A stretch of 64,000 bases of DNA, taken from the NCBI GenBank assembly GCA_973895155.1, contig OZ316891.1, forward strand, positions 31,999,112 to 32,063,111, in the 5' to 3' direction. The stretch's first letter is position 1, and every line of letters begins with the position of its first letter. Under the pieces are notes generated by a model. The model was given only the letters and a program-made list of their open reading frames with translations, made no database searches and had not been told where the DNA came from. This document shows positions 275-63,167 of the stretch, piece after piece. A program made the translations under genes and the position numbers. Origin of the DNA: Marsupella aquatica (taxonomy: Eukaryota; Plantae; Marchantiophyta).

Positions 275-276
275 AT

Positions 277-5916: not shown

Positions 5917-5926
5917 AAGGGGAAGA
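5917..5926 (+). promoter_or_regulatory. Polypurine tract
   Basis: AAGGGGAAGA just before the TGTTG of the 3' LTR. Confidence 0.85.
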
Positions 5927-5927
5927 T

Positions 5928-34900: not shown

Positions 34901-36735
34901 CTGGTAGTATTGTGCATTGGGGGCACTCAATAGGAAACTTGTAGTTGCTTTTACCAACAACAGAAGCTGCATTTTTGAGACAATTCCATGGACATAAAAT
35001 ATCCAATTGGACATCGGAATGAAGACATGATCTCTAACTATCTTGCACTATATGTCCTTTGAACTGCATTCTTAGATAGCCCAAATAGTTGAATTCCAAG
35101 TGGGACAGTTCACAATCCACAGAGTTGAACCAATTCTGAAATAGAATATAATTCTGAAATAAAATATTTTCATTCTGAGAGTCATAAAGTCAAAACTAGT
35201 TCATTTTAACTTTGGCCACTGTCTGGCATGAAAGTCTGGAATGCATATACATATTCGATATCTTCATGTCTGTTTCATGCATACATTCTTGGCGGTGACT
35301 GTTGTATTCAACCTCCAATGTCCCGTGCATGTGTGAACAATTGTTTCACTCAGGTTTTTTCAATTCTTTCCGCTCTGTCTTTGAATGTGCTATTCATGAA
35401 TCACTTTGTCTTTGAATGTGCTCAGGCATTTGTTTTGTGTTCTTCGTGTCCCTAGTATTAAGACTTCATTTTGGTGCAGGTGGAGTGCAAAAAGGCAAGA
35501 GTTCTAATTCAGTCCTATTTGCGAGCTTGTATTTGAATGTAGTATTTTGGCTTCGATTGGCTCCTCTGTTTTGCTAGCTTCGAAATGTCTGCTCATAACA
35601 TTTTTTGATGAACATAGGTATGGACAGAATAGAGTAATTGGGAATTCAGATCATATTGTTGTGTGCTTTGTTGGGGATCCTCATGTGTATGTAACTACAT
35701 ACACATTCTACCTGAGGGCAGTATGCCTGTACACCTCAGGTAGAACCAAGTACTATCTGTCGCATGATATAATTCCACTACACTTCTATATTAATGTTGC
35801 CTAAGTGCTTTATTGTATTTTTTGGTTGAAATGATGTCACTTGCATTTCATAGTCAGTCTTAGTTGGTTGGCTTGGTATTCATTTGCTTTTCACTCCCTG
35901 GGGCTAGTGAATTTGTTTGCTGTCACTGAGTTTCTTGCGTAAGAACTAGATGTTGTTCATTTTCTCGATCCATGCTCTGTTTTGCTCTGTTTCCTCTGTT
36001 TTGCTGGCTTCTTCATGTCTGCTCATAACATTTTTCAGATCGTGTAGTTATGGATAGAACATAGTAATTGGGATCATACTGTCTTCTGCTCTGTTGGGGA
36101 TCCTCTTTGAATATATATATACTTGGTCACATGTATTGAGCTTGGAGGCAGTTTTTTTATTCCCATCTTCATTTTGTCAAGTGACCTTTCTGCCACCCCC
36201 TTTTGGTGGCCTCTTTTTTAGGAAGCTCCTTATTGTGAACACAGTCTGTACTTTGGTTATGAAGTTTGACTGAGTGCTGCGGGCCAATTCCTGTGCCGAC
36301 CTGTGCTGTAATTTGCTTTGTTTTGCATCCACTCTTTAGTTTCCTTCTATTTTATCGACGAGTTTCATGCATATCATGTTTATAAGAGCTTTTGTGCTGA
36401 TGCACAATATAGTTGTGCCAACTGAATGCCAATCTACCTACACTCCTGCTCAGTTCACTCTTGCAAGCAGTGAACTACCTCTCTGCTGCTCACTGTAGGG
36501 TGAGACTTTCAGTCTTTCTGGATATTGTAGTTTGCAACATTGTTCATTAGGAGTGTTTCATGCTATGTTTATACTATGACCTCTAGTTGGAACCAAGGGA
36601 ATGACACAGTGAGTGGGAACTGATTAGTCTCTCTTCTGGTTGTTGTTGGAGAGGCAATTACAGTTCCTGCTGACCTTGCTGATCGAAGGACGTTTGAGGA
36701 CGTGAACACAAGACATCTGAACAACAACAACAGTT

Positions 36736-37189
36736 ATGGTGAGCACCCGCAATGCTGAACATGATTGTGCGGCTTGCATGCAAGGCAGAGAGGTTGCACC
36801 TTGAGTATGTCAGACTTGGGATCCTTCCTGCCCAGTCTGCATGGTACTTTGAGTACCTTGTTGTTGCCAGGAATAACTACAGCCGGCCTGTACCTACTTC
36901 TCCACCCTTCCCAGCATCCTTGGTATTTCTGTCTCTCGTACATGACCCACCACAAATTAGGGCCCAAGGGTGTGTACACAGTTGCCAATATGACTGTCCT
37001 GCCTGTCGGGCATCTGGCCCAGAGTTGGATGACCGTTCTCTTGGATGTCAATTTTTGCATAGAGCACAATGTATCATCTGGAACCACTCGCCATCCTGTA
37101 GTGTGCCTGGCAATGTCACTTGTCCTGGCCTCCCAGACCCCACCACTGGTGCTTTTGGTGTCTACACATGTTTGGATCACACGCTGTAG
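36736..37189 (+). pseudogene. CACTA cargo: Cys/His-rich ORF, copy 1 (4-nt insertion near the start)
   Basis: Homologous to 55532-55981. Confidence 0.5.
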
Positions 37190-40100
37190 AGGAGCACAGT
37201 TTGTCACCCCGTATGCACAGACCAGAGTGGAATGACCTCACACTTAATGCTCTGACTTAAGCACCAAGGATATTAATTTAAAATTTTGAAGTATGAGAAA
37301 TTTTGGGTAAAGTGTTTAGGGTCCAGAGTATATAACTTATCCTATTTTGGCTGCACTAAGTGGAATATTATAATGTAAGAATTAAGCAAGCTCTCTTTAA
37401 ATTCTCCATTCAAAGATTGCTTTAATATCTACTTTAACTTGGCCAACATTGTAACATTCTATGACAGAATTAATGGGCCATGCGATAACCTGCAAACATC
37501 CCTTACACGTATGACTTATTTGTCTCACTATCATAGCCTATATAGGATGTATAAACTAAGTACAACCCTCATCACATTGCTTGATCCCAATCTTGTTGGA
37601 AAAATGCCTATTTTTCATGTGATGACTATTGTATGTGATTCAAATGCATGAAATGTTGTTGCAGATCTTTTTTGGTGAATCACATCCACGAATTTGAGGT
37701 GTTGGTGGAGCAATTGTACTAGGGGTTTAGTTTTGTGTGTGGGCTCAACAAACCAAAAGTATGTCTGCTCTGCATCCTTGTGTGGCCATTGCAATTCATT
37801 GCAGTAGCAAATGCCTTTGTACCTTAAATGCTAAATTTTACTTTTTGTGAAGTCTGCTAAAGTACATTGTCTGTACAGTCTGCCAAAATGTATTGCCTAT
37901 ACCGTCTACTTAATTGTACTGTCTGTCTCATGCGTAGGTATGGCACGCCCCAAAATTCCAGCGAAAAAGCGTGTGATCGATAGAGGTGAGCAACACAGGT
38001 GTACCTGGGCCACATGTTACTAACTTCTCTGCAAGTCAGATTTTCCAGAAGGCAGCTCATTGTTGTGCCATTTGTGACGATGGTGGGAGCTTGGTCATCT
38101 GTGAGGGCCCTTGCATGAGGCATTTCCACCTCAACCCAAAGTCTCACCTTGCTGCAAAAAACAATTGTCCAGGGGTGGGCCTCCCGTCAACACACCAGGG
38201 AGACTGGATGTGCACTGGTTGTTTGGAAAAGCAGGCTAAGTGTGCACAGTGTGGGAAGTTGGGGTCCTATGAGGGCTCTGTTGATGCTGCACCGGATGTT
38301 AGGAAATGTCCAGACCATTTTTGTGTGAGGTTTGTCTGTTTTGAGTGTTTGCCTGCTCATGCCACAACTTGCTGTCAAACACTTGTCAAGGAGCTTAAGC
38401 GGCTTTTCTCCCCAAAAGACTACCTAATACCTTCTCCATATCATACCAGGGTCACAAAAAGATTTACAAAACTTCTGAAATGTGCCTACAATGTCTAATC
38501 ACTCCATACATAAGTAGTTTCAACTCTCCACTTCTAGAGAGGTAGTCCCCTTGACTACTTTTGTACTCACACCCTTCCTCTCTCCTCTACTCCAAGGATC
38601 AGCAAGGGGGATCTCCGCTCCAAGCTATCACCTTAGAGTAGATTCTCACACAAACACCCAAGAACCAAGGTACTTTCCTCTTCAAGCTTAAGTCTCCTCA
38701 ACACCCTCAAAGTAGTGTTACCCCTCAACCTTGCCCCCTGGCCTTGGTTTGGGTCCACACATCCCCCTTTGAGCTCTAGAGAAGGCTCCTCTATCTAAGG
38801 ACTCTTCCTCGTGTTCTTACTTCTTGTTAACACCACACACCAAGCAAAATACTTTCCACCCTCAAGCTATAATCCTTTCTAAGTCTCAAAGTAGTGCTCT
38901 ACCTTAACCTTGCCTCCTTGGCCTTGGTTTTGTACTAGCACATCCCCTTTGAGCTTAGACCAAGATTACATCATAGCATGGACTATTTTCTTGCTCTCAT
39001 ATACTTCAAATGCACTCACACTTAATGGTCACAATGAAGATTGGCAAGTCTCCTTTTATTGCATCACCTTTACAACAAAAGTTCACTACACATTCTCCAC
39101 ACTAAGCATGGACCACCTCTCCCTTCTCAAGCTTAGCCCTACCTTGGCAAGGTAGAGATTCCACTTAAGAGATGAGACTCCCGGTCCCTAACAAATAAAA
39201 ACTTACTCCTTATATACTATTCTCCTTCCACACCACACCAAGCTTGACCTGGGGTCCAACTACTCCTCCCCCAAGTCCTCCTAACACACAAAGTCCAACT
39301 CTATAATTCGTAGCCCACCCTACAACCTATTGTTTGCACTCCTTCCAAGCCCTGGAATATGCCACACATGAGTTGCATGCTTTGACCTCCAAACCTTCTC
39401 CCACTTATGGTCCTCCTCACCAGCTTCCCAACCCACTTGAAATCTTGCAAAAAGAGTGAGTGAGTCTCAAGGTGTGCCTAGTCAAAGATGGCCTTATGTT
39501 ACTTGTAACCCCTTTACTACCCTAAGTAAACTACCCCCTATACTTACTTTTCTTAACATGATGGCCTTACACCTTTGAAAAAAGGTAAGTACCCTTCCCT
39601 AGAGCCTAACTAAAGTGGTATGGGTGCAAGAAAGGTCAGCCCCTAAATCTGGTAGTTATTCCCCTATGCCGACTTTGGTTTGCAAGCTATCAGGACCCCC
39701 TCGTGGCCTCGGCTAAAAATATATTTGAGTGACTCTTTTTCTGGGTTTCCACCTTCACCAAGGGGTGCCTTATCTTTCCCTAACTCAACACAAAAAAAAT
39801 TGGGCCCCAACGGATACCCCTAGCCAAAGTTATGTCCATTCTCCCAAGGCCTGTTTTTGGTGTAAAGCGGGTGTAAGCGACGACCCGATTACACTTACGT
39901 TATACACCCCTTATGGAGATTCCAGGTGTCACCAGGGGAGAGTACTCTCATTATACTCACGTTTCTTATGAAGAATTTGATAAGGACATCAATTTTTGCA
40001 GCCATTTTCCTCTCTCTTGAATTCAATCTGAAAGTGCATCATTCTCTATTGGATTCTAATGGTAGCAGGTCAATCTACAGCTCAACCAGATTTGCAGCAC

Positions 40101-42845
40101 CCTTCTCAGTCCACCTCCATAGCCATCCAGCCTTGCAAGTGATTCAAAATCGCAGCATAATTTTGCAGCAGCCATAGCCCACCAATTCACAGCTAGCAGC
40201 ACAACAGCACATTCAAAGCACAGCAACAGATTCGAAGCACAGCAACAGCAGCCATAGCTTGATTCCTTCTCAGCAACTAGCTCTATTCCAATCACTCATC
40301 CAAACAGGTCTCTCTTCTCAATTTTGCAACTGCCCACCTCTGCAATTTCGCAGCTAGCAGCAATCCTATTTTGCAGCCATAGCTCTTCAATTCGCAGCAG
40401 CAGCCCTCTTCCTTGTTGATCCGCTAATCAATTCTTGTGCAGCAGTCCATCTGATCAGCCGCCAGCCCTTCAATTTCGTAGCCCACCATAGCTCATAGCC
40501 AACCAACTAGCTCTTGATCAGCAGCAGCCTATTTCTCCATAGCAAGCAGCTCTATTCCAATCAACAACATCAAGCAACCAGCCAATTCTAATCAGCATCC
40601 CATGCTTGAAGCTATAGTAGCTCAATTCAATTTCGTAGCTGCCTCTTGATCCCAATTCGAAGCAAGCATCTCATGTATTGACCCTTATGGTGTTCCTGAC
40701 CTCGTGCTTGAGTCGCCCCGGCCTCGTGCTTAAGTCGTGGTCGCCGCCGACGCGGTTGACACTTAGAAAAATTTCGGATTTTTTTGTTGGGAAAACAGTA
40801 TTTACAGGCTGTTTTGGACCGCCCCCAAAAATCACACATGAGTCCCAAATGACTTCTGAGTATATATACATATTTTCTAGACATAGGACTATGTACTGGT
40901 TTACTAATATCTAAACAAAACCTTATCACCGATTTTCTAAAATTAGGTAAAGTGGGTCAATTATTATGTTTTCCAAAATTCTTCTCACCTTTGAGATGCT
41001 CCCAAAAAGTAACCAAAGATACCCAGCTTCTACCACAAGTTTCCAGAGATAGAGTGGACCATATTTAACCCACTTCCAAACTTGGAACTCCTAAATTTAC
41101 TCATCAGCTATTTTTCCCGGGACCCGCTATTTTGTTAATTTAAGTCACACCAAAACACAAGGAAACCCTAGGTTGAGACCCCACTTGACATCTAACTTTT
41201 TAGGGGTGCTCTAGGGACCTCCTAGCATCTATGGGAAAAATATGAACCAAAACTAAGACTTCAAGTGTCGGGTTGTTTCCCCGGCTCGGAATAGTCGCCT
41301 AGTCTAAATAAGGACGGAACGTTGTATGCCCCATCATAAAGACCTTCTTATCCCTTGTCACTTGCTTAGAACTCAGTAACCTTCCATTCCACTTTCTTTC
41401 CTATTCTACCTACTTAAGTTCCTAAAACCTAGTTACTCCGATAGCACTTAAAACGTCTTTCTTACTATTCCTTGTTCAAAAAGCAAAAAAATGACAAGTT
41501 TCTTACATAAACCTATATCGAGCCATTCCACACTTGCCCAATTCATAGGTGCATGGCATGTGGTGAGCATGATGATGAGTACTTGGCTGACATAGTCCAC
41601 TGTGCTAGGTGTCCCACTATGTGGCACTATCATTGCTTGAAAGATCGTCAAGCAGAGGGTTATGCTTGTGACTGTGAGCCGCTCAATTAGTGGGTTAAAT
41701 TAGTTTTAGGTTAGATTTTTTCTTTTTTGTTCTAAGTAAGCATATTATGCCTGTAAATGAGTGAGAAGTAGAAGTGAAGCTGAAGTAAACTCTCTTCAGT
41801 ATAGCAGAGTAAGAAAGTTTCATTAGTTTAAACCACGGTTAACTTAATAGTGGATTAGTGGATTAGATAGGTAATCAGATCCTTAGAGTTTGTAATTTAG
41901 GCTGAGATTTTTTCTGAAGGTTCTAGGCAGGCCCTGGAGAACCCTTGTAAAAGTGCAAGTCATTTCAACCGTTCAATTAGAAGCTATTTACAGTGGAACA
42001 AAACTTAAAATAGCCAACTTGCAGGACCTAGGGAAAATAGCCAGAGAGCAACAAATGTATTTTGAAGGCTAGCCATGGTGTTACTATACCTAACAATATC
42101 CCTCAGAATTACTAAACCTTGTTTTGGACTTATAGATACTTTTTGGGAGTGGTCCGAATTCTGTAAAAGTAGCTATGAAGTATGACGGATTGCAGACTTT
42201 GAACAATTATAAAAAAGCCAAGTTTAGTTATATATCAACTCTAAGAATTGTTTTAGGAAGCCCTAGGGCTAGGAAATCCAGGAGTATGTTCATAATAGTT
42301 TTTTTCCTTATGAGTGAGTTTTGAGCTATAGGCGAAGATGGCTAATGTTAAATGCCATAAGTAGCACTTAAAGGGAGACTTAAAGGGAGGAAAGTTCTTT
42401 GTGCTTACAAAGGGGTAATTCAGCTGCGTAGAGAAACGTGGTGGACTCATTTACATCTGTAAAGGGCAGGGTTACAATGTAAAAGAGCTAGCTAAGGCCA
42501 GGTGTCGAGCCCAGAATTCAATAGAGCAAAAATCAAAGTGAAATTGAAGGGAGAATGGAGCTCAACGAGAATCAGAAGACCTGAACTAGAAGAGGAAATT
42601 CTGGAGCACGAATTAAAGGAGAACACATGGAAGGGAAATTAATAGAGAAGATTGAAATTTCTGAATCAGAGAGAATATTTTACAGAAAGGAGAAGTCATC
42701 GACTACTAACAAGGGGGCTCTTCAGGCGAAATCAACTTGCACCTTCCATAGGGGAACTTCGAGGTGACAACAGTGGACAGCTAGAAGACCATTTCCTCAG
42801 CTAGGGTGATTGACAAGAAATCTGAGCTGTGGCCCTTAACTTCAG

Positions 42846-43068
42846 GAATTGAATGTAGTATCAAGTCCATAGAGGTATTTCTGAAATTAGAATGGCTGTT
42901 CTTTGGACTCAAGAATTGAATGCAGGATTAGTATCAAGTCCATAGAGATATTTCTGAAATTAGAATGGCTGCTCTTTGGACTCAAGAATTGAATGCAGGA
43001 TTAGTATCAAGTCCATAGAGATATTTCTGAAATTAGAATGGCTGCTCTTTGGACTCACAAATTGAATG
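42846..43068 (+). repeat. 73-bp tandem repeat (3 copies)
   Basis: GAATTGAATG...TAGTATCAAGTCCATAGAG units at 42846, 42913 and 42986. Confidence 0.9.
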
Positions 43069-43557
43069 CTACCAAGGTCAACCGACAATCGAGAGAAGAA
43101 CACATGGAAGGGAGATATTTTTGTGAGAATGGAGGGCTGGTATGAACAGAAGCACCAGCCAGACTTCCTTCAAATAAGCCACGATCCCTTCAAACAAGTT
43201 CAGTTCTCTAAGTCCTAGCTTAGTTCTCTCCTTGCTCCAAACTGAATCAGGCAAACCGAGTTTACACCAGTAACTAAGCCTTGAGATAAGGTTGACCCTA
43301 GTTTAAAGTGACAATATCGATGGGTTCTGCTGAAACCTGAATAAATCGCTTAGTTTAGACTCAATCGGAGTACTTTTAAATGCATTGGAAAGCTATCGAC
43401 GGTGGCTAGAGGCTGGCACAAGCTAGGAGGATTGGGAGTTCACTAAGATTCTCTTGGAAGTCAGGTTGTATAACAGTTTGATATTGCCAGCTACTTGAGA
43501 GGTTTCGATTGTGGTAAGGCTCTAAAAGGAGGTCAAGTGGGACTACAATCAAAGTGC

Positions 43558-43902
43558 ATGGCTGATCCAAGAGTTCCTGATCCAAGAGGGCTACCTGATC
43601 ATCACTTTCCTCCCCTGGTCCACAAGGCTAAGTTCACCTTGTGGAGTAAGCATGGGAGAGCAAATGCCGACCCCGACATTTGGCTGGCCCAATACCTAGC
43701 TTGCTCAAAAGTGGACAAGAGGGGCAGAAGTTCAAATCTGAGGGCTTTCACCAAGGTGTACCTCAAGCATTTCAGAGAGGACAACCAGATTACCAAGCCA
43801 CTAACCAGTATGGTAAGGAAGTACCATGCTTGGGTCATTCGCAAGGCCCTAATCGGATGGGTGAGGCCTGGAGAAGGGCTCTTTCATGTCAAGGGGACCT
43901 AG
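43558..43902 (+). CDS. Small protein encoded inside the LTR-like insert, homologous to 13801-14100
   Basis: MADPRVPD...KFTLWSKHGRANADPDIWLAQYL...KALIGWV. Confidence 0.6.
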   Translation: MADPRVPDPRGLPDHHFPPLVHKAKFTLWSKHGRANADPDIWLAQYLACSKVDKRGRSSNLRAFTKVYLKHFREDNQITKPLTSMVRKYHAWVIRKALIGWVRPGEGLFHVKGT

Positions 43903-45593
43903 GCTGGTTCTGGAGTCCAGGAATAAGGAGGTTAAGGAGTGGAGTCCTTAAAGCCAACATGGAGGATACCTAAGGACCTGAGTTACATGCAGACTTGGAG
44001 GAACTTGGAGGGCCATTGGAAGTTGATCCCTCTACTATTTTTAGAGCTATTTTGTAGATAGGGATGACTGTACTTTGGAGGCTGACTTAGTCCCTGATTT
44101 GGAGGGATAGGACAGCCAAGTCAGGAGGTGAGGTGGACCTGAATGAAGGGCTGAAATCAAGGAGTTGATTTAGGCTTTCAAAAGGTCACCAACTAGCTGA
44201 CAAACAAGTGAGTTAGTGAGATAGTTAGGAGGATAAGTAAGGATCTTTGACCCCCTTGAAAGGTGGGCTGGTCTTTTTTTAGTGATGAGTCACTTGCTGG
44301 CCTTTGGGGTGGTTTTGGACTTTGTGATGAGTTGGAGCCAAGCAAGGAGTACTTCAGTTGGTGTGAGTTACTTTGTGTGGGTCCAAGTATGGAGAATCAA
44401 GGAGTAGCACTAAGAGACCTTAGGGGAACTAAGGTAGATGTTCTAGGGGTACTAGAACTCAAGTGTATGCCTTGAGGCTTGAAAGGACCATAGTGTTAAG
44501 TAGTAGGAGTTGAAGAAGCTAAAGTATAGCAAGTAGGTAGTGACAACCTACCCATGTACTTCCTTTGAAATTCTTATGAAATTTCAGCGCATTTCTGGGA
44601 AAGAAATTGTTGATGTGCACTCATCTGAAATCTTGAGGCCCTTGTGGTCTAGCATGTTTCTCATATGATCTTTGTGACTCCAGAAGTCTTCTCTTTGGGT
44701 AAGGGAGACCTAGATTAGTTGTCTTGCCGGGTAGGGGGACATTTCCAGCGGTGGAAACCAAAGAATACCCATTTCTGGTGACGAAAACCAAATACATTTG
44801 CACAGTCTCAAGGAGAAGCAAAGGCTTAATGGAAATAGAGGTAGTTCCTTCTTATGGAGCGTCCCTCCCGTAGTTCCTGGTGATAAAGAGCTATCAAGTG
44901 CAAGCTTTTAGTACAATAAGGCTTATTAGCTCAGAAGCGAGGGTTTGACAGTGACAGAGAAATCTATGATCACTCTGCACATGGTGTTGATCGATGGATA
45001 TTTTATTGTCATCACCATGCCATTGATCCTACCTTGCGCACTCCTATGAGAGATCACATATCTTGGCTGTGAAGCTGAACATTGTACATGCACAGGGCAC
45101 CTAATGTGGATGTACTATTTTTGGAGATTGCAGAGATTCCAATTTTGAATAGGAGTTGGGTAGGCGAGTTTATATAGGGAGCACTTATCCTGTGCCCTGG
45201 CGTTATTGGCTGGGTACATGCCTATAAAAACTTATCCTTACAAGCCTTCTTGGAAGTATTTAGACTGAGTGGTCATTTTCACAAACACTCTCATCAGACT
45301 GCTAAATTAAAACAGGACTTCAAAGTTGTAAGCATTAGGCATGCAATTAATCAAATTGCCCTATAAGTTTGTCATTGAATGTATCCTCCTTTACAACAAA
45401 ATATGTATGTGCGGCCATGACAAGTTGGTTGCACTTCATTTCACCTTTGATATGGATTTCCTAGTATATACTCAAACAATGTCCTACATCGGTGCAGGTG
45501 CCTAGTACTTATTGTTCACATATCCCCTATACCTATCAAAATTGGACCGGATCAACTTAAAAAGCAGGAATTTTGGTGTCCTTCTATTGGCAG

Positions 45594-46515: not shown

Positions 46516-46561
46516 GGACTACATAGTAGCATCAGTTTTGAGACAAGCTTTTTGTACAAAT

Positions 46562-48996
46562 TGTGACGCCAATGACATGGTCCTTATTTTGTAATCTGAT
46601 TAAGTAGGTTGCTGTATGCAAGGAGTAGCTATTGATATTGCATAACAATTAGCAAGATGGCAAGAATAAGCAATCATGGCGTTAAGAGTAGGGAAATAAA
46701 AGCTATGTCGCAGGTGGTCGGCGACCATATCTCTTTCAATATGTCACCAAATCCGGATCTGTAAAGAGCATTGGAAAGATCTGGTCAAGGCGAGTAAAAT
46801 CGATGTAAAACACTCGAGAAACGGAGGTGTATTAAGAAAGATACGGCCTGATTAGTGTGACGGGTTAACTTATGGCCGGAATTAGCGGATTCGGCTTCAG
46901 TTTCGGGTTAACCCAAGCTCGACCACGGCTTAGCTTATGTGAGCATGGCTTCAGCTTAGCTCAGGTCAGCACGGCTTCAGCTTAGCTCAGGTAAGCACGG
47001 CTTCAGCTTAGGCTTAACCCGGGTTCGGATTAGATTGATCCCGGGTTAGACTTAACTCGGGTTAGCCTAAACTCAGGCTCAGGTTAGCATAGGTAAGCTC
47101 GGGTTCGGGCTCAGCTTAGGCTAGGATAGCGGATAGCGGATAGCGGGTAGCGGGTAGCGGCCTAACCCGAGACCACGGGTTAGCTCTACTCGGGTTAGAT
47201 AGGATAGCTAGGTTAGCCGAACTCGGGTTAGCTATGTAACTCGGGTTAGCGCAACAGTGAGTACCCCCTCTCGGTTACGGGGGCATAACTCTCTGTGTAT
47301 TTGACCAAATCGGCTATAATTGACCTCGTTGGAAAGAGGAGCTCAAGCCGCTTCCAACGCTGTTATCCACGTAGCAAATGGTTGAATACAGAAATCGGGA
47401 GAGGAGGCGTAAGCTCGCGAAAACCATGGAGGAGGGCCGAATCCGAAGTACATAGCCAATTCGAGATAGAAATAAAGTTTCGAGTTAGGGTTCAGTAGTT
47501 AGAGATAGTGGCGGCTCTGTTAGGGCTGGGATGGGGCTCCAGCAGCGTAGCATCCACCCATTTGGGCTCAATGAGAGAGTATATAGAGCAGCCCTCTGGT
47601 AGAGGCAGAGGGGGGGGGGAACTTCAGTTGTGTGATCTCACTTAGACTGAGCAGCAGGGAAAAGCTTTGTGCAAGCAAGGCTGGACTTGGACGCTGCGTG
47701 TTGGGGAGAGCTTGGTTGTGCTATTACTCAGGGAGTAATCAGCCAAGCTTCACAGCAACGGGTTGCTAGGTTTGCGAGCTGGATTGTGGCTCTTTCTAGT
47801 GGGCAACACAACTGGGTTCTTTTCCCCCGATACATAGCCTTGGTGAAGGTGATGTGTTGGTGATTGTAAACTGTGGGGAGGATTTCAATGCGATTTGCGG
47901 TGGGCACATTAGGGAGGCTGAGGTACTGATTTAGGGGCAGCAGGAGGAGCATTTACAGTTCAGTCTGGCAAGGCTACATGATCCATGGGGAGTCCCGGCC
48001 TTTGTCTGGTGGAGAGCACTAAGGGATCTATGGCCAGAGCTGAGCTTGCAGGGCAAGCATGAGGCCGGGCCTCATTGTAGTCTGGGGTAGATCGCCGTTA
48101 GGCCTGGTACCAGCTTTGAAGTCGAGTCAACTGTGCATGCGTACTTGACATTCTGAAATGGAGGTGTGAGATCTGTACGTGCCCCCAAGAATGAAGTGCA
48201 GTGAAGGAGGTTGAGTTCAGGATTGAGTTTGCAAGGCAAGTACGGGATTGGTTCGAGTCCAATCTGCCATCGCAATCTGGAGTGAGCCGGGCTCAGGTTC
48301 AGGATTGAGCTTGCATGGCAAGCACGGGGCTTGCGGGGCAAGCACGTCGCAATCTGGAGGAGACAGCCTTCGGGCCTAGTGTTCGGATCAAGTGTTCTCA
48401 GTGAACTATTGTGCACATCTTTGAATCCAATTGAGTTTTCCTTTCAGGCCTCATTTCTCTCATGGATGTGTGTGTGTGTGAGGCAATCTGAGTGTATGAT
48501 GAGACTAGCAGTGCCACTGAGAGGTGTACCGGGTGCATTGAAGTGGGTTGGGTGAGGGCTGTCACAGCTCTGATTGCTGAGAGTGGAATGGCAGAGTGGT
48601 GGGGCAATGGCTTAGAAGTCCCTAAGCCGGGAATCAGTCAGGAGTCACTGGTTTATGGGTACATTCCGGCGGCGGAATAGAAACATACCTATGACAGTAA
48701 GCATACGTATAGACCTATGCGCACCGTAGCGCTAGGCCCTGTGTGTACGGGCCCGATATGAAGACCCCTTCTCACCAGAACTATCATGAGCGCAGATCTG
48801 ATCCCCAACCTTGGTTCCTTGGGATTGAGCTTGGGTGATGTGTGATAGAGCTTTGCTATGATAGTCTGGTGTTAAGGGCATAAATTGGTGTTTACCGGCC
48901 TTCACAACATCCCTTCGTGATCCTCAGGTACAAGGAGATGGTTTTGGCACCCATAGTGACGTCTTTGGTGTTAAGACCCATGTCAATCGCATGACA
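46562..48996 (+). mobile_element. Solo LTR (2435 bp)
   Basis: TGTGACGC...GCATGACA; TSD CAAAT (46557-46561 and 48997-49001); absent from the paralogous block near 58450; internal CTCGGGTTAG-type low-complexity repeats 46860-47250. Confidence 0.88.
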
Positions 48997-49046
48997 CAAA
49001 TCACATCTTTTAAATAAATGTGATATTTGAACTAACGTAGCTTGTT

Positions 49047-49649
49047 ATGGTTGGTCGCAGTTGGACTTATTTTACTGTTGGCAGATTGTTGTTTCCTGTT
49101 GCCTGGGGGTGTCACTGTAAACTTACTAGGGGTGGGCTCAAATCTTGGCAGCAGACTTTGGTGGGTATGTTGCCTTTCCTACATCACCAGGCGCTATGTA
49201 GGCTCCTCCTACGGGTTGCCACATGGCTGGCCACTGTTTGGACTCTCCTGCATGGGTTGGTGTTGAAACATATTTTGGCACCGCCTGAGGATGCAAGAGA
49301 CGATGAATCTTATTTTTCAGCAGATGAAATAGAAGAGCATAATGTTGTCGGGACTTCCTTGTTGCCTGGTTTGCCAGATGATATAATGTTGTCAGATGTG
49401 TGGCTCAGAATTCTTCTATGGTCAACCGCACAAGACATTTGCAAATATAGACTAATTAGCACACAATGGAGGGACTTGGTAGCTAGCTCCCCCCAGTGGA
49501 GGGCATTACAACCACTTCTTGTAGGCACAGATCGAACCCCACCCTGGTATGCCCATGGCATACTCCTTGATGACCTGATGTACATGCCAGTGTACCTCAG
49601 GTGTGAATACCATCGAGAACAGGGTGGGTATCCAGATGAGCTCTGGTAA
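49047..49649 (+). CDS. CACTA cargo: F-box-domain ORF, copy 1
   Basis: SLLPGLPDDIMLSDVWLRI...ICKYRLISTQWRDLV resembles a plant F-box; start codon uncertain. Confidence 0.65.
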   Translation: MVGRSWTYFTVGRLLFPVAWGCHCKLTRGGLKSWQQTLVGMLPFLHHQALCRLLLRVATWLATVWTLLHGLVLKHILAPPEDARDDESYFSADEIEEHNVVGTSLLPGLPDDIMLSDVWLRILLWSTAQDICKYRLISTQWRDLVASSPQWRALQPLLVGTDRTPPWYAHGILLDDLMYMPVYLRCEYHREQGGYPDELW

Positions 49650-52600
49650 TAACGTGACACTAGAAGAAACCGGCCCTATCTGAGACCCTCCCTTACATGA
49701 CTTACTTGAGACCTTTGGAAATCAGTGACTCCAAGGTTATTGGTGTCATCTTTGTTACACCTTCTCAACTAAGTTTTGGTGAATTTTTGGAGAGTCGTAT
49801 CTTTAACTATTTGGAGTGTTGCAATTGGAACTTAGTGTAGGCAATTATTTTGAAGTTTTATAAGTGACTCAGCACAATTATAATAGCGCTTTCTGCCATC
49901 TTTATCACCATGGTTGCACATATATAAGAACAATGTAACTTTGGCTCTTATTAAATAATAATCTCGGCCCACATCCCAAATCCAACCCATACATATATAC
50001 TTTATTTGTATGATTCACAAAATGATTATAGGTGTGGCTATATATACCTGAGGCCGGTGCAATTGCAAGTCGCGCGCCATGATGCAGGCCACTGGTTAAT
50101 TACTCCATCATACAAACAAAAAGACACACACTAAACCCACTAACATCATTTGGCAACGTTCTGTCTCCAAATATACCCCTTGGCCAATTTCAAATGGTTG
50201 CAGCTCCCTTCATGTAGGAATATTGAACGGCCCAATATAAGGGACTCTTTTTGTTAAGGGTACAATGTAATGCCTTTGCCGCAAGACCACTTCTACCTAC
50301 TCTTCCTTGTAATATGTGTTGCCCTCAATTGGCTTCATGAACCCCTTCACCTAATGGACCATGCCGCAAGTTTCCACATGCTACATGGTAATGCCTTTGC
50401 CCATCGAGTGTTTTGCCCGAACCCCTTGTGCCAAAACCCATGGGAGAAACAACGAGTGCCTTTGCGCGCATAGAGTGTCGGCATTTGGTGAGCGGGAAGG
50501 AAGAGCCAAACATCGTCAGGCTTGGGCTTTCGAGTGAATCCTATCGAGCTTCTTTGAGTGTCTTGTCTCCGCGCTTGCAGGAGACCCTGCTTGGATTCTT
50601 GCTACTATTGGGAGCTCGGGGTTGGAAGGAGGGTTGAGTCATTGGTGGTGGAAGGAGCTGTGGGTTTAGGAGGCTGCTTATTGCGAGCACAAAACATTGC
50701 AGCGGTGACATTGCTAGGTTTTGCGATTGTGCTGTGGGTTTAGGCCGGGTTACTATGAGCTTATGTTGTTGCAGCACTACCGTGGATAAGGGGCTGTGGA
50801 GGACCGAGGAGCTACGACGTAGAACTGAGGAGCTGCAAAAAAGTGGGGAGTGATCTTGAAGGCCAACTATCTAGCGTGAGGTGGATCATCGTGGTTGCAA
50901 TAGCGACCGGGCCCTGTTTTGCATTGGCACTGTCAGTAAGACAGTTTGTGGACGCGCGAAAGAGTCGCAAGGAGTTGTTCTTGCGGGCTGACACAACTTC
51001 ATGGGAGTGTTGAAGGTTTAGGGTGAGCAACAGTGGAGAGCTCATTGCTTGGTGGCAGGATTCAAGGTCGTCGGCACATTGTGGACATCTCACAAAGTTC
51101 ATTGTGTGAGGTGGATGATAGGGTTGCAAGGCCAACCGGGCCCTACTTTTGCATTGAGCAATGTGAGTGAGGTGAGGGGACCTATTGCTACCCTTTATGT
51201 TTGCGCTCCCATTGCCCCGATTATTGCTTGACAGCTTGCTGCGGAGTTTGTGAGGAGAGCGGAGTTTGTGAGGAGAGACATTGCAACCCTTTCTCGAACA
51301 AAATCTCTGGAGGTGGATAGGGTGGCCGCATTTTAGGTTTGTGGAGGACATTGTTTTGCTTGCATTTGCATTGTTCTTGTTGCGGACATTGGATTTCAAC
51401 AGCGAGGCTTTGAGGCGGAGTTGGAGTGGAGGTGAACATTGATCTCAACTGAGTGAGTTTGAGCTGCAACATAGGTGGACATTGCATCTGCTTTGAACCG
51501 CACTCCTCGGGAACAACTCTGGCATTTAAGCTTTCGGCGCTTCTCTTACTGCCGTGAACAACTCTGTAAGGTTGTAGGCAATAGTGCGCTTAGTGAGGTC
51601 CTACTTAGTCAAGAGCAACTTCTTCCTATCAAAGACACGCTTGGGATCCCAAACTCACATGATTGTCTGTTGAATGTGCTTTTTCACTGTCTCTCCCCAC
51701 GTCTCTCTTGGCAAAACTAGATGATACTCCAGCCTTTTACGATTCCTCTGTTTCATCAGTGTGTCAATCACTCCCTCACTTCTCATACCATAGTTACCTT
51801 CCCTATCAACATCGCTCTCATTGGAGCTGAAATCATCTTCTTGCGTCCTTCACAGCATCTGCTTAACGTTTGTGTAACCGGGAGTTACCAGGCCCTTTGA
51901 GTTTTTCATTGTTTGCCTATGGTGCTGGCATTATTGTCACACTTGTTCTCATTCCGCAGTGCACTATTTGCAATTCAATTATCCTTCAGAATTCTGTCAA
52001 AAGGTGAAGTATTAGTAAGTCCGACTACATTTTCCCTTTACTCACAATTTCATTTCATAATCGCCTACGTGTGGGAGCATTCCACAAACTGAGCAAAGGT
52101 GCAACTGTGGTGGAGATATGCGGAGCTGAGCTAAGCTAAATCTTGGCAGGTCCTCATCAATTGAGCGCAGGCTGGACTGACATGAGCGTTACTATTCAAA
52201 GAGGAAGCTGCTGAGTGCATGGAGCTGCAATTGACATTTGGTACTAATTGCTGATTTTGTTGGAGCTTCCTTTGCGCAAGCTAGGTGTATTCTGACCTTG
52301 GAGCTACCGGGGCCGCTACTGGAAGGTACTATTGCTCCTGACTACCATGACTGTAATGTCGGATATATGCGTGAATTGTCGTTTGAGTAATGCTTGTAAA
52401 ATCTTGTAATGCTTGTAAAATCTTTCAAAGTTTGTGAAGGTAAGATAAACTGTGGAGTCTCTCTGTCATTCTTCTTGTTCCAAGCCTACAACTCGTCCTT
52501 TTTGCCATGTCCTCTTCTGTATCCTGTTTTGTATCTTGTATTTTGTCACTTTAAATTGTCCATGATGTTGTGAGATGTTTCATTCGTTCTAGTTCGCTCT

Positions 52601-54174: not shown

Positions 54175-54518
54175 TCAAACAAATGTGTTGGGCCTGGTGG
54201 CCTTGTAAGTCATCTTCAGCTTTCGCAATGGAGGTTGAATCTTGCGGTACGTCAAGGGGAACTTGATCTTCGAATCATGGAACTGCTTGGTACTTTCTCG
54301 CTTGCACAGAGAGACAGGGACTGTCGTAGTCTTGATGATCTGGATGCAAGGGAACCGAACTCTATGACAAGAAGCCATCTCATCATACATCTGCTCTACA
54401 GCTCCGTTCAACGTGGTATGACGATATTCCTTGTACATGTTGTGATAACCTGTACGACTCTAATACCTCACCCAGATACCGAAGTTCTTTTGTTTGTGGT
54501 GGGCTTCTTTTCGAAGAT
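54175..54518 (-). pseudogene. RPL18a: Captured last exon of 60S ribosomal protein L18a (eL20), decayed
   Basis: IFEKKPT...[40 protein letters not shown]...[12 protein letters not shown]...RPNTFV*; preceded by an intron-like acceptor CTACCAG|ATC; one frameshift and one stop. Confidence 0.92.
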
Positions 54519-55531
54519 CTGGTAGACACATTATTCAGCATTTGCTAACTTCAAAACTAGAAGGGTAACACATTAAACAACAGAGAAACTCACAAGTTCA
54601 TCCTCCTTTGGTCCTTTAGAGTCTGTACTTTGATTATGAAGTTTGACTGAGTTTCTATTTACTGAAAGAATGTGACTGTGTAAGAGTTCCGTTTGGCAGT
54701 GGATTGGTTGAAGCACTTCATGCTAGTGTGTTGTCCACAGCTCTTCAACCAGCTTTCGTATTCCTTGTCTTTCACCACTTACGATGACATCAATTCAGCT
54801 AAGACCATAGAAGGTTCCAAAGCATCTAACTTGTAAAATCGCATTCTGTTACATCAAGGACTAAGGTGTTGGGTGCCAAAGGAGACAGCACAACAAACAC
54901 GCTGAAAAGACTTCAGGACTAGGTTCAACAAGGTAGTGAAGGTGCTTAGAGCCATAGTAAGTATGCATTCTGTATCTTTCTCTGTTGATGTGAGCTTGTG
55001 CATAATGGGAGTTGTAGTTGGCAAGAGTTCCAAATATGAATAGATCCAGAAGTATGTGATCATGTACTTGCTCTATAAAGTTCTGAAGATATAAGCATTT
55101 TCTGTTAGACCAGGCAACTTGGGAGTTGGTAAGTGTCCCCTGCATCTGAGGGGCTACACCAGGGGCATCAGTGGAGGTTCACTTGCACAACACGACAGCC
55201 AGTGAATTTTCTCTCTACTGCAACCTGCAAGGTGAGACTTTCGGTCTTTCTGGATGAAAAAACAGGATTTTAATATGATTGATATACATGTCCGTTGAGA
55301 ACATGGGTTTATCACCAAGCTCTTTGTCTTAGGAAACTCATAAACTCAGAATCAAATATGTACTATGCATGTTTCATGCTATGTGTATACTATGACCTGT
55401 AGTTGGAACCAAGACAGTGAGTGGGAACTGATTAGTTTAGGTTGGTTGCTGTTGGCAAGGCAAGTCAACCTCCTGCTCACCTTGCTCATCAAAGGACGTG
55501 AATAGAGGACATCACAACAAAAGCAACACTT

Positions 55532-55981
55532 ATGGTGAGGACCCGCAACGCTGAACATGTGCGGCTTGCACGCAAGGCAGAGATGTTGCACCTTGAGTAT
55601 GTCAGACTTGGGATCCTTCCAGCCCAGTCTGCATGGTACTTTGAGTACCCTGTTGTTTCCAGGAACAACTACAGCCGGCCTCTACCTGCTTCAGTACCCT
55701 TCCCGACATCCTTGGTATTTGTGTCTCTTGTACATGACCTGCCACAAATTAGGTGCCAAGGGTGTGTGCACAGTTGCCAATATGACTGTCCTGCCTATAG
55801 GGCTTCTGGCCCAGAATTGGATGACCGTTCTCTTGGATGCCGATTTTTGCACAGAGCACAATGTATCATCTGGAACCACTCGCCATCCTGCAGTGTGCCT
55901 GGTGATGTCACTTGTCCTGCCCTCCCAGACCCCACCACTGGTGGCTTTGGTGTCTACACATGTTTGGATCACATGCTCTAG
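55532..55981 (+). CDS. CACTA cargo: Cys/His-rich protein of unknown function, copy 2
   Basis: 149-aa ATG ORF with CQGCVHSCQYDC...CRFLH...CIIWNH...C...C...CLDH; conserved with copy 1; the true reading frame is ambiguous. Confidence 0.5.
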   Translation: MVRTRNAEHVRLARKAEMLHLEYVRLGILPAQSAWYFEYPVVSRNNYSRPLPASVPFPTSLVFVSLVHDLPQIRCQGCVHSCQYDCPAYRASGPELDDRSLGCRFLHRAQCIIWNHSPSCSVPGDVTCPALPDPTTGGFGVYTCLDHML

Positions 55982-56750: not shown

Positions 56751-56978
56751 ATGGCACGGCCTAAAATTCAAGCCAAAAAGCGTGTGACAGAGGTGAGAAA
56801 CACAAGTGTACTTGGGGCAGATGCTACTAACTTCTCTGCAAGTCAGATTTTCCAGAAGGCAGCTCATTGTTGTGCCATTTGTGACAATGGTGGGGGCCTG
56901 GTCATTTGTGAGGGCCTTTGCATGAGGCATTTCCACCTCAACCCGGAGTCTCACCCTAAACATGCACAGTGCACCTGA
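56751..56978 (+). pseudogene. CACTA cargo: EDM2-type PHD ORF, copy 2 (internally deleted)
   Basis: MARPKIQAKKR...CAICDNGGGLVICEGLCMRHFH, then jumps to sequence equivalent to 45085. Confidence 0.8.
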
Positions 56979-57488
56979 TGTGGATGTACTATTTTTGAGA
57001 TTGCAGAGATTCCAATTTTGAAAAGGAGTTGGGTATGCGAGTTTATATAGGCAACACTTATCTTCTGCTTTGGCGTCAGTGGCTGGGTACATGCCTATAA
57101 AAACTTATCCTTACAAGCCTTCTTGGAAGTATTTAGGCTGAGTGGTCATTTTCATAAACACTTTCATCAGACTGCTAAATTAAAACAGAACTTCTAAGTT
57201 GTAAGCGTATAAATTATCAGGCATGCAATTAATCAAATTGCCCTATAAGTTTGTCATTGAATGTATCCTCCTTTACAACAAAATATGTATGTGCCATGAC
57301 AAGTTGGTTGCACTTCATTTCACCTTCGATATGGATTTTGTAGTATATATTCAAACAATGTCCTGCATCCGTGCAGGTGCCTAGTATGTATTGTTCACAT
57401 ATCCCTTGTACCTATCAAAATTGGACCTGAGCACCAGTGGGCCAGATCAACTCAAAAAGCAAGAATTTTGTTGTCCTTGTATTGTCAG

Positions 57489-58409
57489 GTGAACCCATTC
57501 TTCCAAAATTCATTGTCATCACGTAGGGTGTGTGTACATGGAGCCTGGGAACGTAGAAAGTGTGACCACCCAGCAGTGTTTATAGGGGTCAGAGCCATTT
57601 TGGTCCATGGCCAGCATGGGTTGACCAAAGTGCATTGGCCAACTGTACAGAAACGATTCTCTGAGCTCCATGGCACTGTACTTCAGGACATCACTCCAGA
57701 GACTACACATGTTGTTGCAGGGACATGGCTATCAGTGATAAACAAGTGGTCATGGTCCTACATGAATTCTGCAATTACTAAGCAAGGCCTAAAAGTAGTT
57801 GAGGCCTCTTGGATCACAGATTCCATAGCACATAAGATTGTATAGGATACTGAGCAATATGAGCTGTGGGAGGATGAAGAAGCTATTGCATCAGCTTGGG
57901 CTGAACAAGAAGTCTGGGAAGCAAAGGCACGGCTTGCTGATGTCCAATATGGACCTGTACTCAACAAAGGACAGAGCTCTACAAGGCTGAAGAGTATGTT
58001 GGCTGAGGAGACGAAGCAACCAACCCCCATTCTGAAAGGGCTGAGCATGGTATTTGTGGAGGCGGGAATTGGAGAGGTTAAGTGCAAAGTGTACAAGTCC
58101 ACAGTGCTTGACCTAGGTGGGACAGTGGAGGAGAATATAACAGAGGACACCACTCATGTCATTACTAAGTCATATCCCAAAGCCTGCCGCAAGTTTGGGA
58201 AGGTAGACATTCGCTTTTATGTCATGTCCCATAATGTGTTTGTGGTTTCATATGCTTGGCTTGTGGAATCAGTAGCAGCTAGGAAGCGTCAAAACCCAAT
58301 GGACTATGATCTTTTTGAGGCCTGGCCACGGAAGGGTCAGGATCCTTACAGAGAGGACTATGAGACAACAAGTGAGGAATGGGTCATTAGCGATTCTGAA
58401 TCAGAGTGA
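57489..58409 (+). pseudogene. CACTA cargo: tandem BRCT protein, copy 2 (single TAG at 57843, which is CAG in copy 1)
   Basis: Two BRCT repeats: VFIGVRAILV...LHGTVLQDITPETTHVV...SWITDSI and ILKGLSMVFVEAG...LGGTVEENITEDTTHVI...AWLVESV; acceptor CAG at 57486-57488. Confidence 0.85.
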
Positions 58410-58705
58410 GGAGTAGTAGCATCAGTTTGGACACAATTTTTTTTGTATAAATCAGATCATTGAAATAAATGTGATCTTTGAACTAATGTACCTTGTTATG
58501 GTTGGTGGCAGTTGGGCTTATTTTACTGTTGGTGGATTGTTGTTTCCTGCTGCCTGGAGGTGTCACTGTAAACGTACTGGGTGGGCTCAAATCTCGGCGG
58601 CAGACTTTGGTGGGTATGTTGCCTTTCCTAGATCAATAGGCGCTATTACGGCTCCTCCTCCGGGTTGCCATATGGCTGGCCACAGTTAGGACTCTCCTGC
58701 ATGGG

Positions 58706-58954
58706 TTGGTGCTAAAACATTTCTTGGCACCGCCTGAGGATGCAAGAGATGTTGAATCTATCATGAATGAGGATGCACAGTCCAAAGTGGACATCTACTT
58801 TTCAGCAGATGAGTTAGACAAGCCCGATGTTGTAGGTGGTTCCTTGTTGCCTGATTTGGCAGATGATATAGTTCTTTCACATATCTGGCTGAGGGTTCTT
58901 GTGGTGTCCTGTGCACAAGATATCTGCAAATATAGATTTAATGTACATGCCTGA
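58706..58954 (+). pseudogene. CACTA cargo: F-box ORF, copy 2 (internally deleted)
   Basis: SLLPDLADDIVLSHIWLRV...ICKYR; homologous to the region from 49258 onward. Confidence 0.6.
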
Positions 58955-59362
58955 GTACCTGAGGTCTGAGTGGCATCGAGAACAGGGTTGGTACCCATAT
59001 CTCACCTGGTAATAAGGTGAGATATGTGATACCTCTCTCACACCTGTGCCTGTGACTATACATGATTGGACTCTGATATGGTCATGGGTGTACATGCAGA
59101 GGTGGTACATTTGAGGACAGCGGAGGAGGTGGTGACACCCTCCAACATTTAGGAATTTTGTGTCATTCACTTGACAATAGGTACACTACTCGCGAACCTG
59201 CTTTTTTCTTTTGGGGTGGTTTAGGGTTTGTGAGAATTTAGTACACGTTATATATGTTAACTCTTTTGGTAAATATAGTCAGGGATATATGGAACACAAA
59301 TACCACCATTAGGCATACTTGTTCACTGCTGTCCATGACTGCAGAGCTCCCAGCCTGTTACA

Positions 59363-63098: not shown

Positions 63099-63167
63099 GT
63101 AATGTTGAATTGTTTGCATGGACATTAGTGAGGGGATGTGTAATAAAGTAATTCTGAAGCAACACAG

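What the first reader, a model, noticed from the sequence alone, without database searches (positions are those of the whole stretch)
36490..59020. CACTA family carrying a conserved host-manipulation cassette: Cys-rich ORF, EDM2-type PHD reader, tandem BRCT and F-box
Seen: two related but diverged CACTA elements (TIRs 15/16, largely unrelated 5' regions) both carry the same four ORFs in the same order and strand (36736/55532, 37940/56751, 45594/57489, 49047/58706). In element 2 the block sits directly upstream of tnpD. The lesions differ between copies, so intact or near-intact ancestral ORFs can be reconstructed. The proteins look strongly diverged from host proteins, unlike the captured RPL18a exon, which stays close to the host sequence. 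Known: PHD fingers read histone marks, BRCT domains act in DNA repair, F-boxes recruit SCF ubiquitin ligases, and VANDAL-encoded VANC proteins show that plant DNA transposons can encode anti-silencing factors. Inference: this is a long-retained accessory toolkit covering chromatin, break repair and protein turnover, not random Pack-type debris.
Basis: partly seen in the sequence, partly recalled or inferred. Interest (0 to 1): 0.9.

Follow-up and report, generated by a model that had tools for sequence, protein, structure and literature searches.

The report
Plant transposon with four accessory genes
Two nested, decayed copies of a cut-and-paste plant transposon carry the same four extra genes (an unknown cysteine-rich protein, a histone-reader-type module, a DNA-repair-type adaptor and a small ubiquitin-ligase-type adaptor), which also exist intact in distant relatives and likely help the transposon work in silenced chromatin, though that function is untested.

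Summary
Two CACTA copies (5' TIRs at 32517 and 49658, 15/16 identical) carry four ORFs in the same order. Element 2 is inserted inside element 1; no 3' TIR lies in the window. Both copies are dead. The likely starts are 45643/57538 for BRCT and 49167/58616 for the F-box gene, not those given.

Each ORF has intact, collinear homologs: 54-55% (orphan), 71-78% (PHD), 54-59% (BRCT), 48-62% for the seven best F-box hits. Between the two copies dN/dS is 0.34-0.43 (orphan) and 0.27-0.39 (F-box), both significant. It is not significant for PHD (0.53-0.69) or BRCT (0.8-1.0). Contigs from four runs with four organism codes cover both cassette and tnpD.

The PHD protein is a stand-alone EDM2/NSD-type triple finger without a catalytic domain. 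These look like real accessory genes, not Pack-type debris. Anti-silencing or host manipulation is untested, and no RNA evidence was found. The closest precedent is the three-gene cassette of red-algal Plavaka (EnSpm) elements. I did not find this PHD+BRCT+F-box set in print. The host is a land plant, possibly a liverwort. Verdict: new variant of a known kind.

The parts
32517..32532 (+). Element 1 5' TIR (CACTA type); the 3 bases before it are the expected target duplication
   Evidence: Paralogous empty site near 11866 breaks exactly at the TIR; short subterminal direct and inverted repeats at 32616-32779
36736..37189 (+). Element 1 ORF1, orphan Cys/His-rich gene, frameshifted by a 4-bp insertion near 36762
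37940..45072 (+). Element 1 ORF2, stand-alone EDM2/NSD-type triple PHD gene (~226 codons), broken by a 4-bp insertion near 37975 and two insertions
   Evidence: P0028 residues 14-143, 142-188 and 181-226 map to 37983-38372, 41532-41672 and 44932-45069 at 78-85%
38373..41532 (.). 3160-bp TG...CA insertion with a 5-bp target duplication (solo-LTR-like, inferred) inside ORF2
41673..44950 (.). 3278-bp TG...CA insertion with a 5-bp target duplication inside ORF2
45643..46515 (+). Element 1 ORF3, two-BRCT gene (~290 codons), one stop and two frameshifts
46562..48996 (.). 2435-bp TG...CA insertion with a 5-bp target duplication between ORF3 and ORF4
49167..49649 (+). Element 1 ORF4, 160-aa F-box protein with a short conserved C-terminal motif; reading frame open
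49658..49673 (+). Element 2 5' TIR, inserted into element 1 just behind ORF4
54175..54520 (-). Captured RPL18a exon with a stop and a frameshift (Pack-type fragment; element 2 only)
55532..55981 (+). Element 2 ORF1, intact 149-aa orphan with 8 invariant Cys/His
56751..56956 (+). Element 2 ORF2, first ~68 codons of the PHD gene; the rest is deleted
57538..58409 (+). Element 2 ORF3, two-BRCT gene with a 1-bp deletion near 57549 and a stop at 57843
58616..59012 (+). Element 2 ORF4, F-box gene with an early stop and a 122-bp deletion
59363..63098 (+). tnpD transposase of element 2 (Transpos_assoc, Transposase_21, DUF4218, DUF4216), with two stops, a 4-bp insertion and probable introns

Best explanation
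The window holds two nested, dead copies of a multi-copy CACTA/EnSpm family whose four small genes upstream of the transposase are likely the element's own accessory genes, kept because they help it act in host chromatin. Shown: order, domains, intact distant homologs of all four, selection on two of them. The 160-aa F-box protein would plug into SKP1/SCF as a minimal adaptor or decoy and so alter the turnover of a host silencing or surveillance factor. The two-BRCT protein, which starts with a basic, NLS-like stretch, would act as a scaffold at transposase-made DNA ends. The orphan Cys/His protein would bind zinc and may give sequence specificity. Together they would fill the role that TnpA or VANC fill in flowering plants. 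About 0.8 that the genes are selected parts of the element; about 0.55 that they work on chromatin or silencing in this way.
For: Full-length collinear homologs with the same start and end: ORF1 54-55%, PHD 71-78%, BRCT 54-59%, F-box 18 hits at E<=0.001, of which the best 7 share the C-terminal motif at 48-62%. The homolog pairs are themselves 44-79% alike, so several old lineages kept open frames. dN/dS between the copies: ORF1 0.34-0.43 (p 0.003-0.014), F-box 0.27-0.39 (p 0.0004-0.007), pooled 0.42-0.54 (p<=0.001; permutation p 0.0015). ORF1's second open frame (+1) gives 1.1-1.5. A diverged BRCT contig gives pN/pS 0.45-0.58 on 27 of its 35 differences. F-box against L001 DNA: pS 0.59, pN 0.33. 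The stop at 57843 is private to element 2: 42243 of 42412 summed depth in X2 reads a sense codon. Contigs of 4 of 4 runs laid cover cassette and tnpD. One BRCT homolog and one F-box homolog both list a longest contig of 2402 bp, which is circumstantial for linkage. Precedent: red-algal EnSpm/Plavaka elements keep a three-gene chromatin-related cassette (10.1101/2025.02.11.637652), and angiosperm TnpA appears to be co-opted from a heterochromatin regulator (PMC13547354).
Against: No expression or binding evidence. dN/dS is not significant for PHD (0.53-0.69, 66 codons) or BRCT (0.80-1.01) between these two copies. The diverged BRCT contig loses significance if its 8 unlisted differences are nonsynonymous or if a transition bias is allowed (p 0.03-0.37). 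The one homolog locus with DNA (L001, 1090 bp) shows no other cassette gene or tnpD in its short flanks, so linkage in distant lineages is unproven. The PHD Pfam scores are below the curated cut-offs. The BRCTs lack the Ser/Thr-Gly phosphopeptide motif (motif recalled). No 3' TIR is in the window.
Confidence: 0.55

Rival explanations
1. The genes are selected parts of the element but serve transposition mechanics rather than silencing: the PHD protein steers integration to a chromatin state, the BRCT protein recruits end-joining to the excision and insertion sites, and the F-box protein limits transposase levels.
For: Same selection and conservation evidence. The weak BRCT matches are to BRCA1, Rtt107, ligase IV and microcephalin. 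Accessory proteins that bind transposases are documented or predicted for MURB and TnpA.
Against: The PHD is the EDM2/NSD type, and EDM2 binds H3K9me2 and affects transposon silencing (PMC7529245, PMC3632883). No insertion-site data are available here. This rival and the best explanation overlap in part.
Confidence: 0.25
2. The four ORFs are separate small mobile or host gene families that were gathered by capture and hitch-hike in a successful CACTA lineage. The selection signal dates from before capture or from other carriers; there is no joint function.
For: Divergence between the two copies is mosaic (dS about 0.16, 0.14, 0.035 and 0.47 for ORF1-4), so modules are exchanged. The F-box family is wider than the others and reaches an annotated Riccia sorocarpa protein on a 49-Mb contig. 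L001 shows no linkage. The search used for the F-box was more sensitive than that used for the other three.
Against: Fixed order in two elements with unrelated 5' ends. Selection is seen between two element copies, i.e. after capture, for ORF1 and the F-box. Contig cover of the cassette is of the same order as that of tnpD in X1 and X2.
Confidence: 0.15
3. Recent Pack-CACTA capture of one host locus or of host exons, now decaying (at most acting as siRNA camouflage).
For: Both copies are broken, and element 2 does carry a decayed RPL18a exon. Gene capture by CACTA elements is common (PMC8978399, PMC13317346).
Against: The ORFs are intronless, have their own start and stop, and match intact homologs end to end at 48-78%; dN/dS is below 1 for two genes; no named protein was returned for ORF1-3 in the length range searched.
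Confidence: 0.05

Closest known systems
Plavaka (EnSpm/CACTA superfamily) elements of red algae with the PAG1-3 cassette (bioRxiv 10.1101/2025.02.11.637652; passages read)
   Same: Giant, abundant EnSpm-superfamily elements with a fixed, long-retained multi-gene accessory cassette, including one orphan gene and chromatin-related genes; most copies are degenerate; function is inferred from domains.
   Different: PAG2/3 are enzymes (adenine methylase + SET; ParB + 2OG oxygenase). Here the genes are non-catalytic adaptors (PHD, BRCT, F-box), the transposase is the classical plant Transposase_21/DUF4218 type, and the host is a land plant.
VANDAL (MULE) VANC and KAONASHI/ULP1 (review PMC13317346, passages)
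   Same: A plant DNA transposon with conserved accessory genes derived from host chromatin or ubiquitin-like pathway domains.
   Different: Different superfamily; VANC's anti-silencing activity is shown by experiment; no Pfam or structure match of ORF1-4 to VANC/PMD or Peptidase_C48 was found.
En/Spm TnpA of flowering plants (PMC13547354, passages)
   Same: Accessory factor of a CACTA element, proposed to come from a host heterochromatin regulator (NDX).
   Different: TnpA-like domains are reported only in flowering plants; none of the four ORFs matches TnpA in Pfam. The region downstream of tnpD is cut by the window end, so a TnpA-like gene there is not excluded.
EDM2/ELP and NSD PHD module (PMC3776765, PMC7529245, PMC3632883; passages)
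   Same: Three fingers matching PHD-1st_NSD, PHD_NSD and PHDvar_NSD in order; the last finger ends in His (C4HC2H).
   Different: Stand-alone 220-226-aa protein without the methyltransferase-like, SET or proline-rich parts, and carried in a transposon.
Polerovirus P0 (PMC6593998; abstract start only)
   Same: A small parasite-encoded F-box-like protein that binds SKP1 and is linked to suppression of silencing; a functional analogy for ORF4.
   Different: No sequence similarity was tested or claimed; the target of ORF4 is unknown.
Pack-CACTA (PMC6379663, search listing; review passages)
   Same: The RPL18a fragment in element 2 is of this kind.
   Different: The four ORFs are whole genes with old homologs, in an element that also encodes tnpD.

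Membership tests
CACTA/EnSpm superfamily | TIR beginning CACTA | tested here: met
   5' TIRs at 32517 and 49658, 15/16 identical
CACTA/EnSpm superfamily | Matching 3' TIR | not testable with these tools
   None in the window; no genome held
CACTA/EnSpm superfamily | 3-bp target site duplication | tested here: inconclusive
   Left junctions are fixed by an empty paralog (element 1) and by the host element (element 2); the right copies lie outside the window
CACTA/EnSpm superfamily | TnpD transposase (Transposase_21 with DUF4218/DUF4216/Transpos_assoc) | tested here: met
   PF02992 E 1e-65, PF13960 E 4e-27, weaker PF13952 and PF13963; element 2 only
CACTA/EnSpm superfamily | Subterminal repeats | tested here: inconclusive
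   Present behind the TIR of element 1, weak behind that of element 2
CACTA/EnSpm superfamily | TnpA / ORF2 gene | not testable with these tools
   Region after 63098 is cut by the window end; the one ORF scanned there has no significant Pfam match
EDM2/NSD-type PHD module | Repeat of atypical PHD fingers matching the NSD-type models | tested here: met
   P0028 matches PF23011, PF22908 and PF23004 in order, each below the curated cut-off; Atlas top cluster is Streptophyta PHD_NSD/PHDvar_NSD, score 0.93
EDM2/NSD-type PHD module | C-terminal finger C4HC2H (last Cys replaced by His) | tested here: met
   Seen in P0028, P0029 and element 1; definition from PMC3776765
EDM2 protein family (whole protein) | ELP methyltransferase-like domain and proline-rich C-terminus | tested here: not met
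   The gene ends right after the third finger at 220-226 aa; it is an EDM2-type module, not an EDM2 ortholog
EDM2/NSD-type PHD module | Descent from EDM2 rather than another NSD-type protein; H3K9me binding | not testable with these tools
   No plant EDM2 sequence or histone reference could be brought in
Phosphopeptide-binding tandem BRCT (BRCA1 type) | Two BRCT repeats | tested here: met
   PF00533 above cut-off in both halves
Phosphopeptide-binding tandem BRCT (BRCA1 type) | Ser/Thr-Gly at the end of strand 1 (phosphate pocket; motif recalled) | tested here: not met
   The residue before Gly varies (H/P/S in repeat 1; A/K/E in repeat 2) across 3 sequences
F-box protein (SCF adaptor) | F-box motif | tested here: met
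   PF00646 22.3 bits against cut-off 20.5; 7 of 9 homologs scanned match weakly
F-box protein (SCF adaptor) | SKP1 binding and a substrate-binding domain | not testable with these tools
   Only a conserved ~45-aa C-terminal motif of no known family follows the F-box
Pack-CACTA | Non-autonomous element with host gene fragments close to the donor | tested here: not met
   tnpD present; the four ORFs are whole genes with old homologs. Only RPL18a fits.
Plavaka with PAG cassette | PAG2 (methylase + SET) and PAG3 (ParB + 2OG oxygenase) | tested here: not met
   No such Pfam match in the cassette ORFs or in 57 further ORFs

The most novel reading that the evidence does not exclude
A non-seed-plant CACTA lineage runs a counter-silencing module built only of adaptors: a stolen EDM2-type reader marks or shields its own heterochromatic copies, a mini F-box redirects the host SCF ligase against a silencing factor, a BRCT scaffold handles the DNA ends and an orphan zinc protein gives sequence specificity. 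It would be the first transposon-encoded SCF adaptor acting against genome defence and an independent invention parallel to TnpA and VANC.
Probability: 0.25. Interest if true: 0.88.

Novelty: new variant of a known kind. Interest (0 to 1): 0.64.

Why it matters
Proven anti-silencing proteins of plant DNA transposons are almost limited to VANDAL/VANC (as stated in the papers), and TnpA-like domains are reported only from flowering plants. A conserved four-gene kit in an abundant CACTA family of another plant lineage gives concrete, small, testable proteins for the question of how cut-and-paste elements reach high copy number under silencing. In a survey of 1007 plant genomes (PMC12973397, Table S6), the terms PHD and F-box occur only in MULE rows and BRCT in one of 775 CACTA clusters, so this set is rare or unsampled. 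A reader-only EDM2 module and a mini F-box would also be useful probes of host heterochromatin and SCF biology.

Tried and rejected
No whole genome is held, so family consensus, copy count, 3' ends and host donors could not be obtained. No RNA holder was listed among 11 runs; this says nothing about expression. Locus searches with the BRCT alignment found no relative in metagenome contigs (0 of 172 candidates) or viral contigs (0 of 128), nor with ORF1 in viral contigs (0 of 52). The F-box alignment gave 1 of 116 (L001), too short to show neighbours. AlphaFold models were poor (ORF1 pLDDT 45; BRCT 31). Foldseek of the ORF1 model found nothing at E<=0.001 in PDB or BFVD; the BRCT model was not searched. 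ORF1 has no Pfam, PDB-sequence or Atlas match and no similarity to the tnpD N-terminal zinc domain. The second long open frame over ORF1 was rejected (dN/dS 1.1-1.5). One spliced PHD-BRCT fusion gene was considered and rejected, because each homolog has its own start and stop. Of 57 further ORFs, mostly from the 5' regions, only the tnpD start had a Pfam match. Near-identical pieces in runs X8 and X9 have depth 2-8 and were not used as evidence of presence in those organisms. The complex predictor was not used: no plant SKP1 or histone reference was available. Earlier scan notes held nothing on this family. Ten literature searches found no description of this cassette; subscription papers, Repbase and bioRxiv supplements were not visible.

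Full report
Anatomy. The window is repeat-rich plant DNA without a held genome. Element 1 begins at 32517. A paralogous stretch at 11624-11879 matches the flank and breaks exactly at the TIR, which fixes the junction. Element 2 begins at 49658; the TIRs agree in 15 of 16 bases. Self-comparison gives three shared blocks: 36554-38148/55370-56955 (83%), 45086-46561/56960-58452 (93%) and 48998-49657/58449-59020 (about 79-80%). Element 1 follows element 2's sequence up to the position equal to 59020 and is then cut by element 2's TIR. Element 2 is therefore nested in element 1, between the F-box gene and where tnpD would be. Neither 3' end is in the window. The gaps in element 1 are three insertions of 3160, 3278 and 2435 bp with TG...CA ends and 5-bp target duplications, probably solo LTRs (inference).

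The genes. ORF1 is intact in element 2 (149 aa). Its two homologs (55% and 54%) carry the same N-terminal start motif and end at the same place, and 8 Cys/His residues are invariant across 4 sequences. It has no family in Pfam, PDB or the Atlas. ORF2 is complete but thrice interrupted in element 1. Homologs P0028 and P0029 (78% and 71%) are intact 226- and 220-aa proteins that map over all three pieces. They consist of three NSD-type PHD fingers, the last ending in His, the EDM2/NSD1 signature described in PMC3776765. EDM2's methyltransferase-like domain (PMC7529245) is absent. ORF3 has two BRCT repeats and intact 294- and 295-aa homologs at 59% and 54%; these place the start at 45643/57538. 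ORF4 is a 160-aa F-box protein. An exhaustive search found 18 proteins at E<=0.001; the best 7 (48-62%) share an F-box and a ~45-aa C-terminal motif, and 3 of the weakest (P0017, P0020, P0021) are unrelated or generic F-box hits that I left out of the alignment. tnpD in element 2 carries two stops and a 4-bp insertion, so both copies are dead.

Selection. Codon counts between the two copies, with transition weights 1 to 3: ORF1 17 synonymous and 20 nonsynonymous changes, dN/dS 0.34-0.43, p 0.003-0.014; PHD (66 shared codons) 6 and 12, 0.53-0.69, not significant; BRCT 7 and 20, 0.80-1.01, not significant; F-box core 21 and 27, 0.27-0.39, p 0.0004-0.007; pooled 0.42-0.54, permutation p 0.0015. 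Dead copies add neutral changes, which bias these values towards 1. The BRCT copies differ by only 3.4%, and several of those changes are private to element 2, including the stop at 57843. A diverged BRCT contig in run X5 gives pN/pS 0.45-0.58 on 27 of 35 differences, p 0.03-0.10, and not significant if the 8 unlisted ones are all nonsynonymous. Of the 40 variant rows shown (31 not shown), 20 fall on third codon positions. dS differs strongly between genes (0.16, 0.14, 0.035, 0.47), so the cassette is a mosaic and modules are exchanged between lineages (inference).

Spread. Nine runs from seven studies and six organism codes hold part of the stretch; none is on record as RNA. In the four runs laid on 49600-64000 (3865, 8334, 537 and 184 contigs), cassette and tnpD are both covered. 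In X1 and X2 the summed depth over the cassette (33,000-363,000) is of the same order as over tnpD (38,000-192,000) and far above element 2's first 4.3 kb (150-5,600). The tool states that summed depth is no copy number, and no contig spans the block; I take the pattern only as a hint that the cassette is a core part of an abundant family and the 5' region is subfamily-specific. All close homologs come from unnamed short contigs. The only named one is a weak F-box hit from the liverwort Riccia sorocarpa (E 6.6e-5), and RPL18a matches land plants best. The host is thus a land plant, possibly a liverwort (weak evidence). Linkage in distant lineages is not shown: L001 has no neighbour gene in 1090 bp, and the equal 2402-bp contig length of P0002 and P0007 is only suggestive.

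Mechanism. Shown: four whole genes in fixed order inside a CACTA upstream of tnpD, old, two under measurable purifying selection. Inferred: none has a recognisable catalytic domain, so the kit looks like a set of adaptors. EDM2 binds H3K9me2 and affects transposon silencing and full-length transcription (PMC7529245, PMC3632883). A reader-only copy would dock on silenced element chromatin. A mini F-box would engage SKP1 as adaptor or decoy, as polerovirus P0 does (abstract). The BRCTs do not keep the Ser/Thr-Gly phosphate pocket (motif recalled), so a BRCA1-like phospho-reader role is unsupported and a scaffold role is more likely. I put 0.55 on a chromatin/silencing role, 0.25 on transposition mechanics, 0.15 on hitch-hiking without joint function and 0.05 on recent Pack-type capture.

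Comparison with the literature. EnSpm-superfamily elements with a conserved accessory cassette are known from red algae (PAG1-3; 10.1101/2025.02.11.637652, passages; also mentioned in PMC6431247). VANC/KIU are the proven case in MULEs (PMC13317346, passages). TnpA-like domains are reported only in flowering plants (PMC13547354, passages). In Table S6 of PMC12973397 (passages, section 2.3 and term searches of the supplement), all 5 PHD rows and all 3 F-box rows are MULE, and 1 of 3 BRCT rows is a CACTA accessory protein (1 of 775 clusters). PMC8978399 (passages) has no mention of PHD, BRCT or F-box. Ten searches gave no description of this set; Repbase, subscription papers and bioRxiv supplements could not be seen and may hold it.

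Verdict. A real feature and a new variant of a known kind: a land-plant CACTA with a four-gene adaptor cassette.

Noticed in passing
window 1-6348: Young Copia element: LTR pieces 1-274 and 6075-6348 are 99.6% identical; gag (347 aa) and pol (1090 aa) are in frame, separated by one stop at 2461-2463.
   Followed up: partly
window 21619-23184 (-): Open 521-aa ORF with a fungal-type protein kinase match (PF17667, above cut-off), beside a 2.1-kb block duplicated at 7433-9542/23010-25124; the other copy is followed by LINE-like fragments.
   Followed up: no
window 25408-28875 (+) and 30374-31507 (-): Three in-frame ORFs (537, 363, 253 aa) separated by single stops, coiled-coil in the middle, no clear Pfam family. 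The first shares a weak 91-aa domain with the 377-aa ORF on the other strand (25%, E 2e-6). It resembles retrotransposon accessory or plant-mobile-type domains (recalled, untested).
   Followed up: partly
window 9537-11879 and 29787-32529: Two 94-97% identical copies of another repeat; element 1 is inserted at the end of the second, and the first serves as the empty site.
   Followed up: partly
window 37925-37939, 56736-56750, 45580-45593, 57475-57488: Splice-acceptor-like sequences lie just upstream of the PHD and BRCT start codons in both copies. The cassette genes might be reached by alternative splicing from a shared leader; untested.
   Followed up: no
window 53929-54890: The captured RPL18a region has about ten times the contig depth of the rest of element 2's 5' part, so this fragment may itself be amplified in a large subfamily.
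   Followed up: no
window 49167-49256 and homologs: Several F-box homologs have a hydrophobic N-terminal segment (19-residue hydropathy 1.5-2.4 in 4 of 12 tested) and an acidic motif before the F-box; the segment shows no selection signal on 9 differences.
   Followed up: partly
window 63250-63730: Broken acidic ORF pieces ending at a splice-donor-like site follow tnpD; they may be the first exon of a downstream TnpA-like gene cut by the window end.
   Followed up: no
run X8 on window 58140-58183: Short contig pieces at depth 81-161 continue with loose ends that, read by eye, stay in frame as a diverged BRCT homolog, hinting at a related family in organism E.
   Followed up: no
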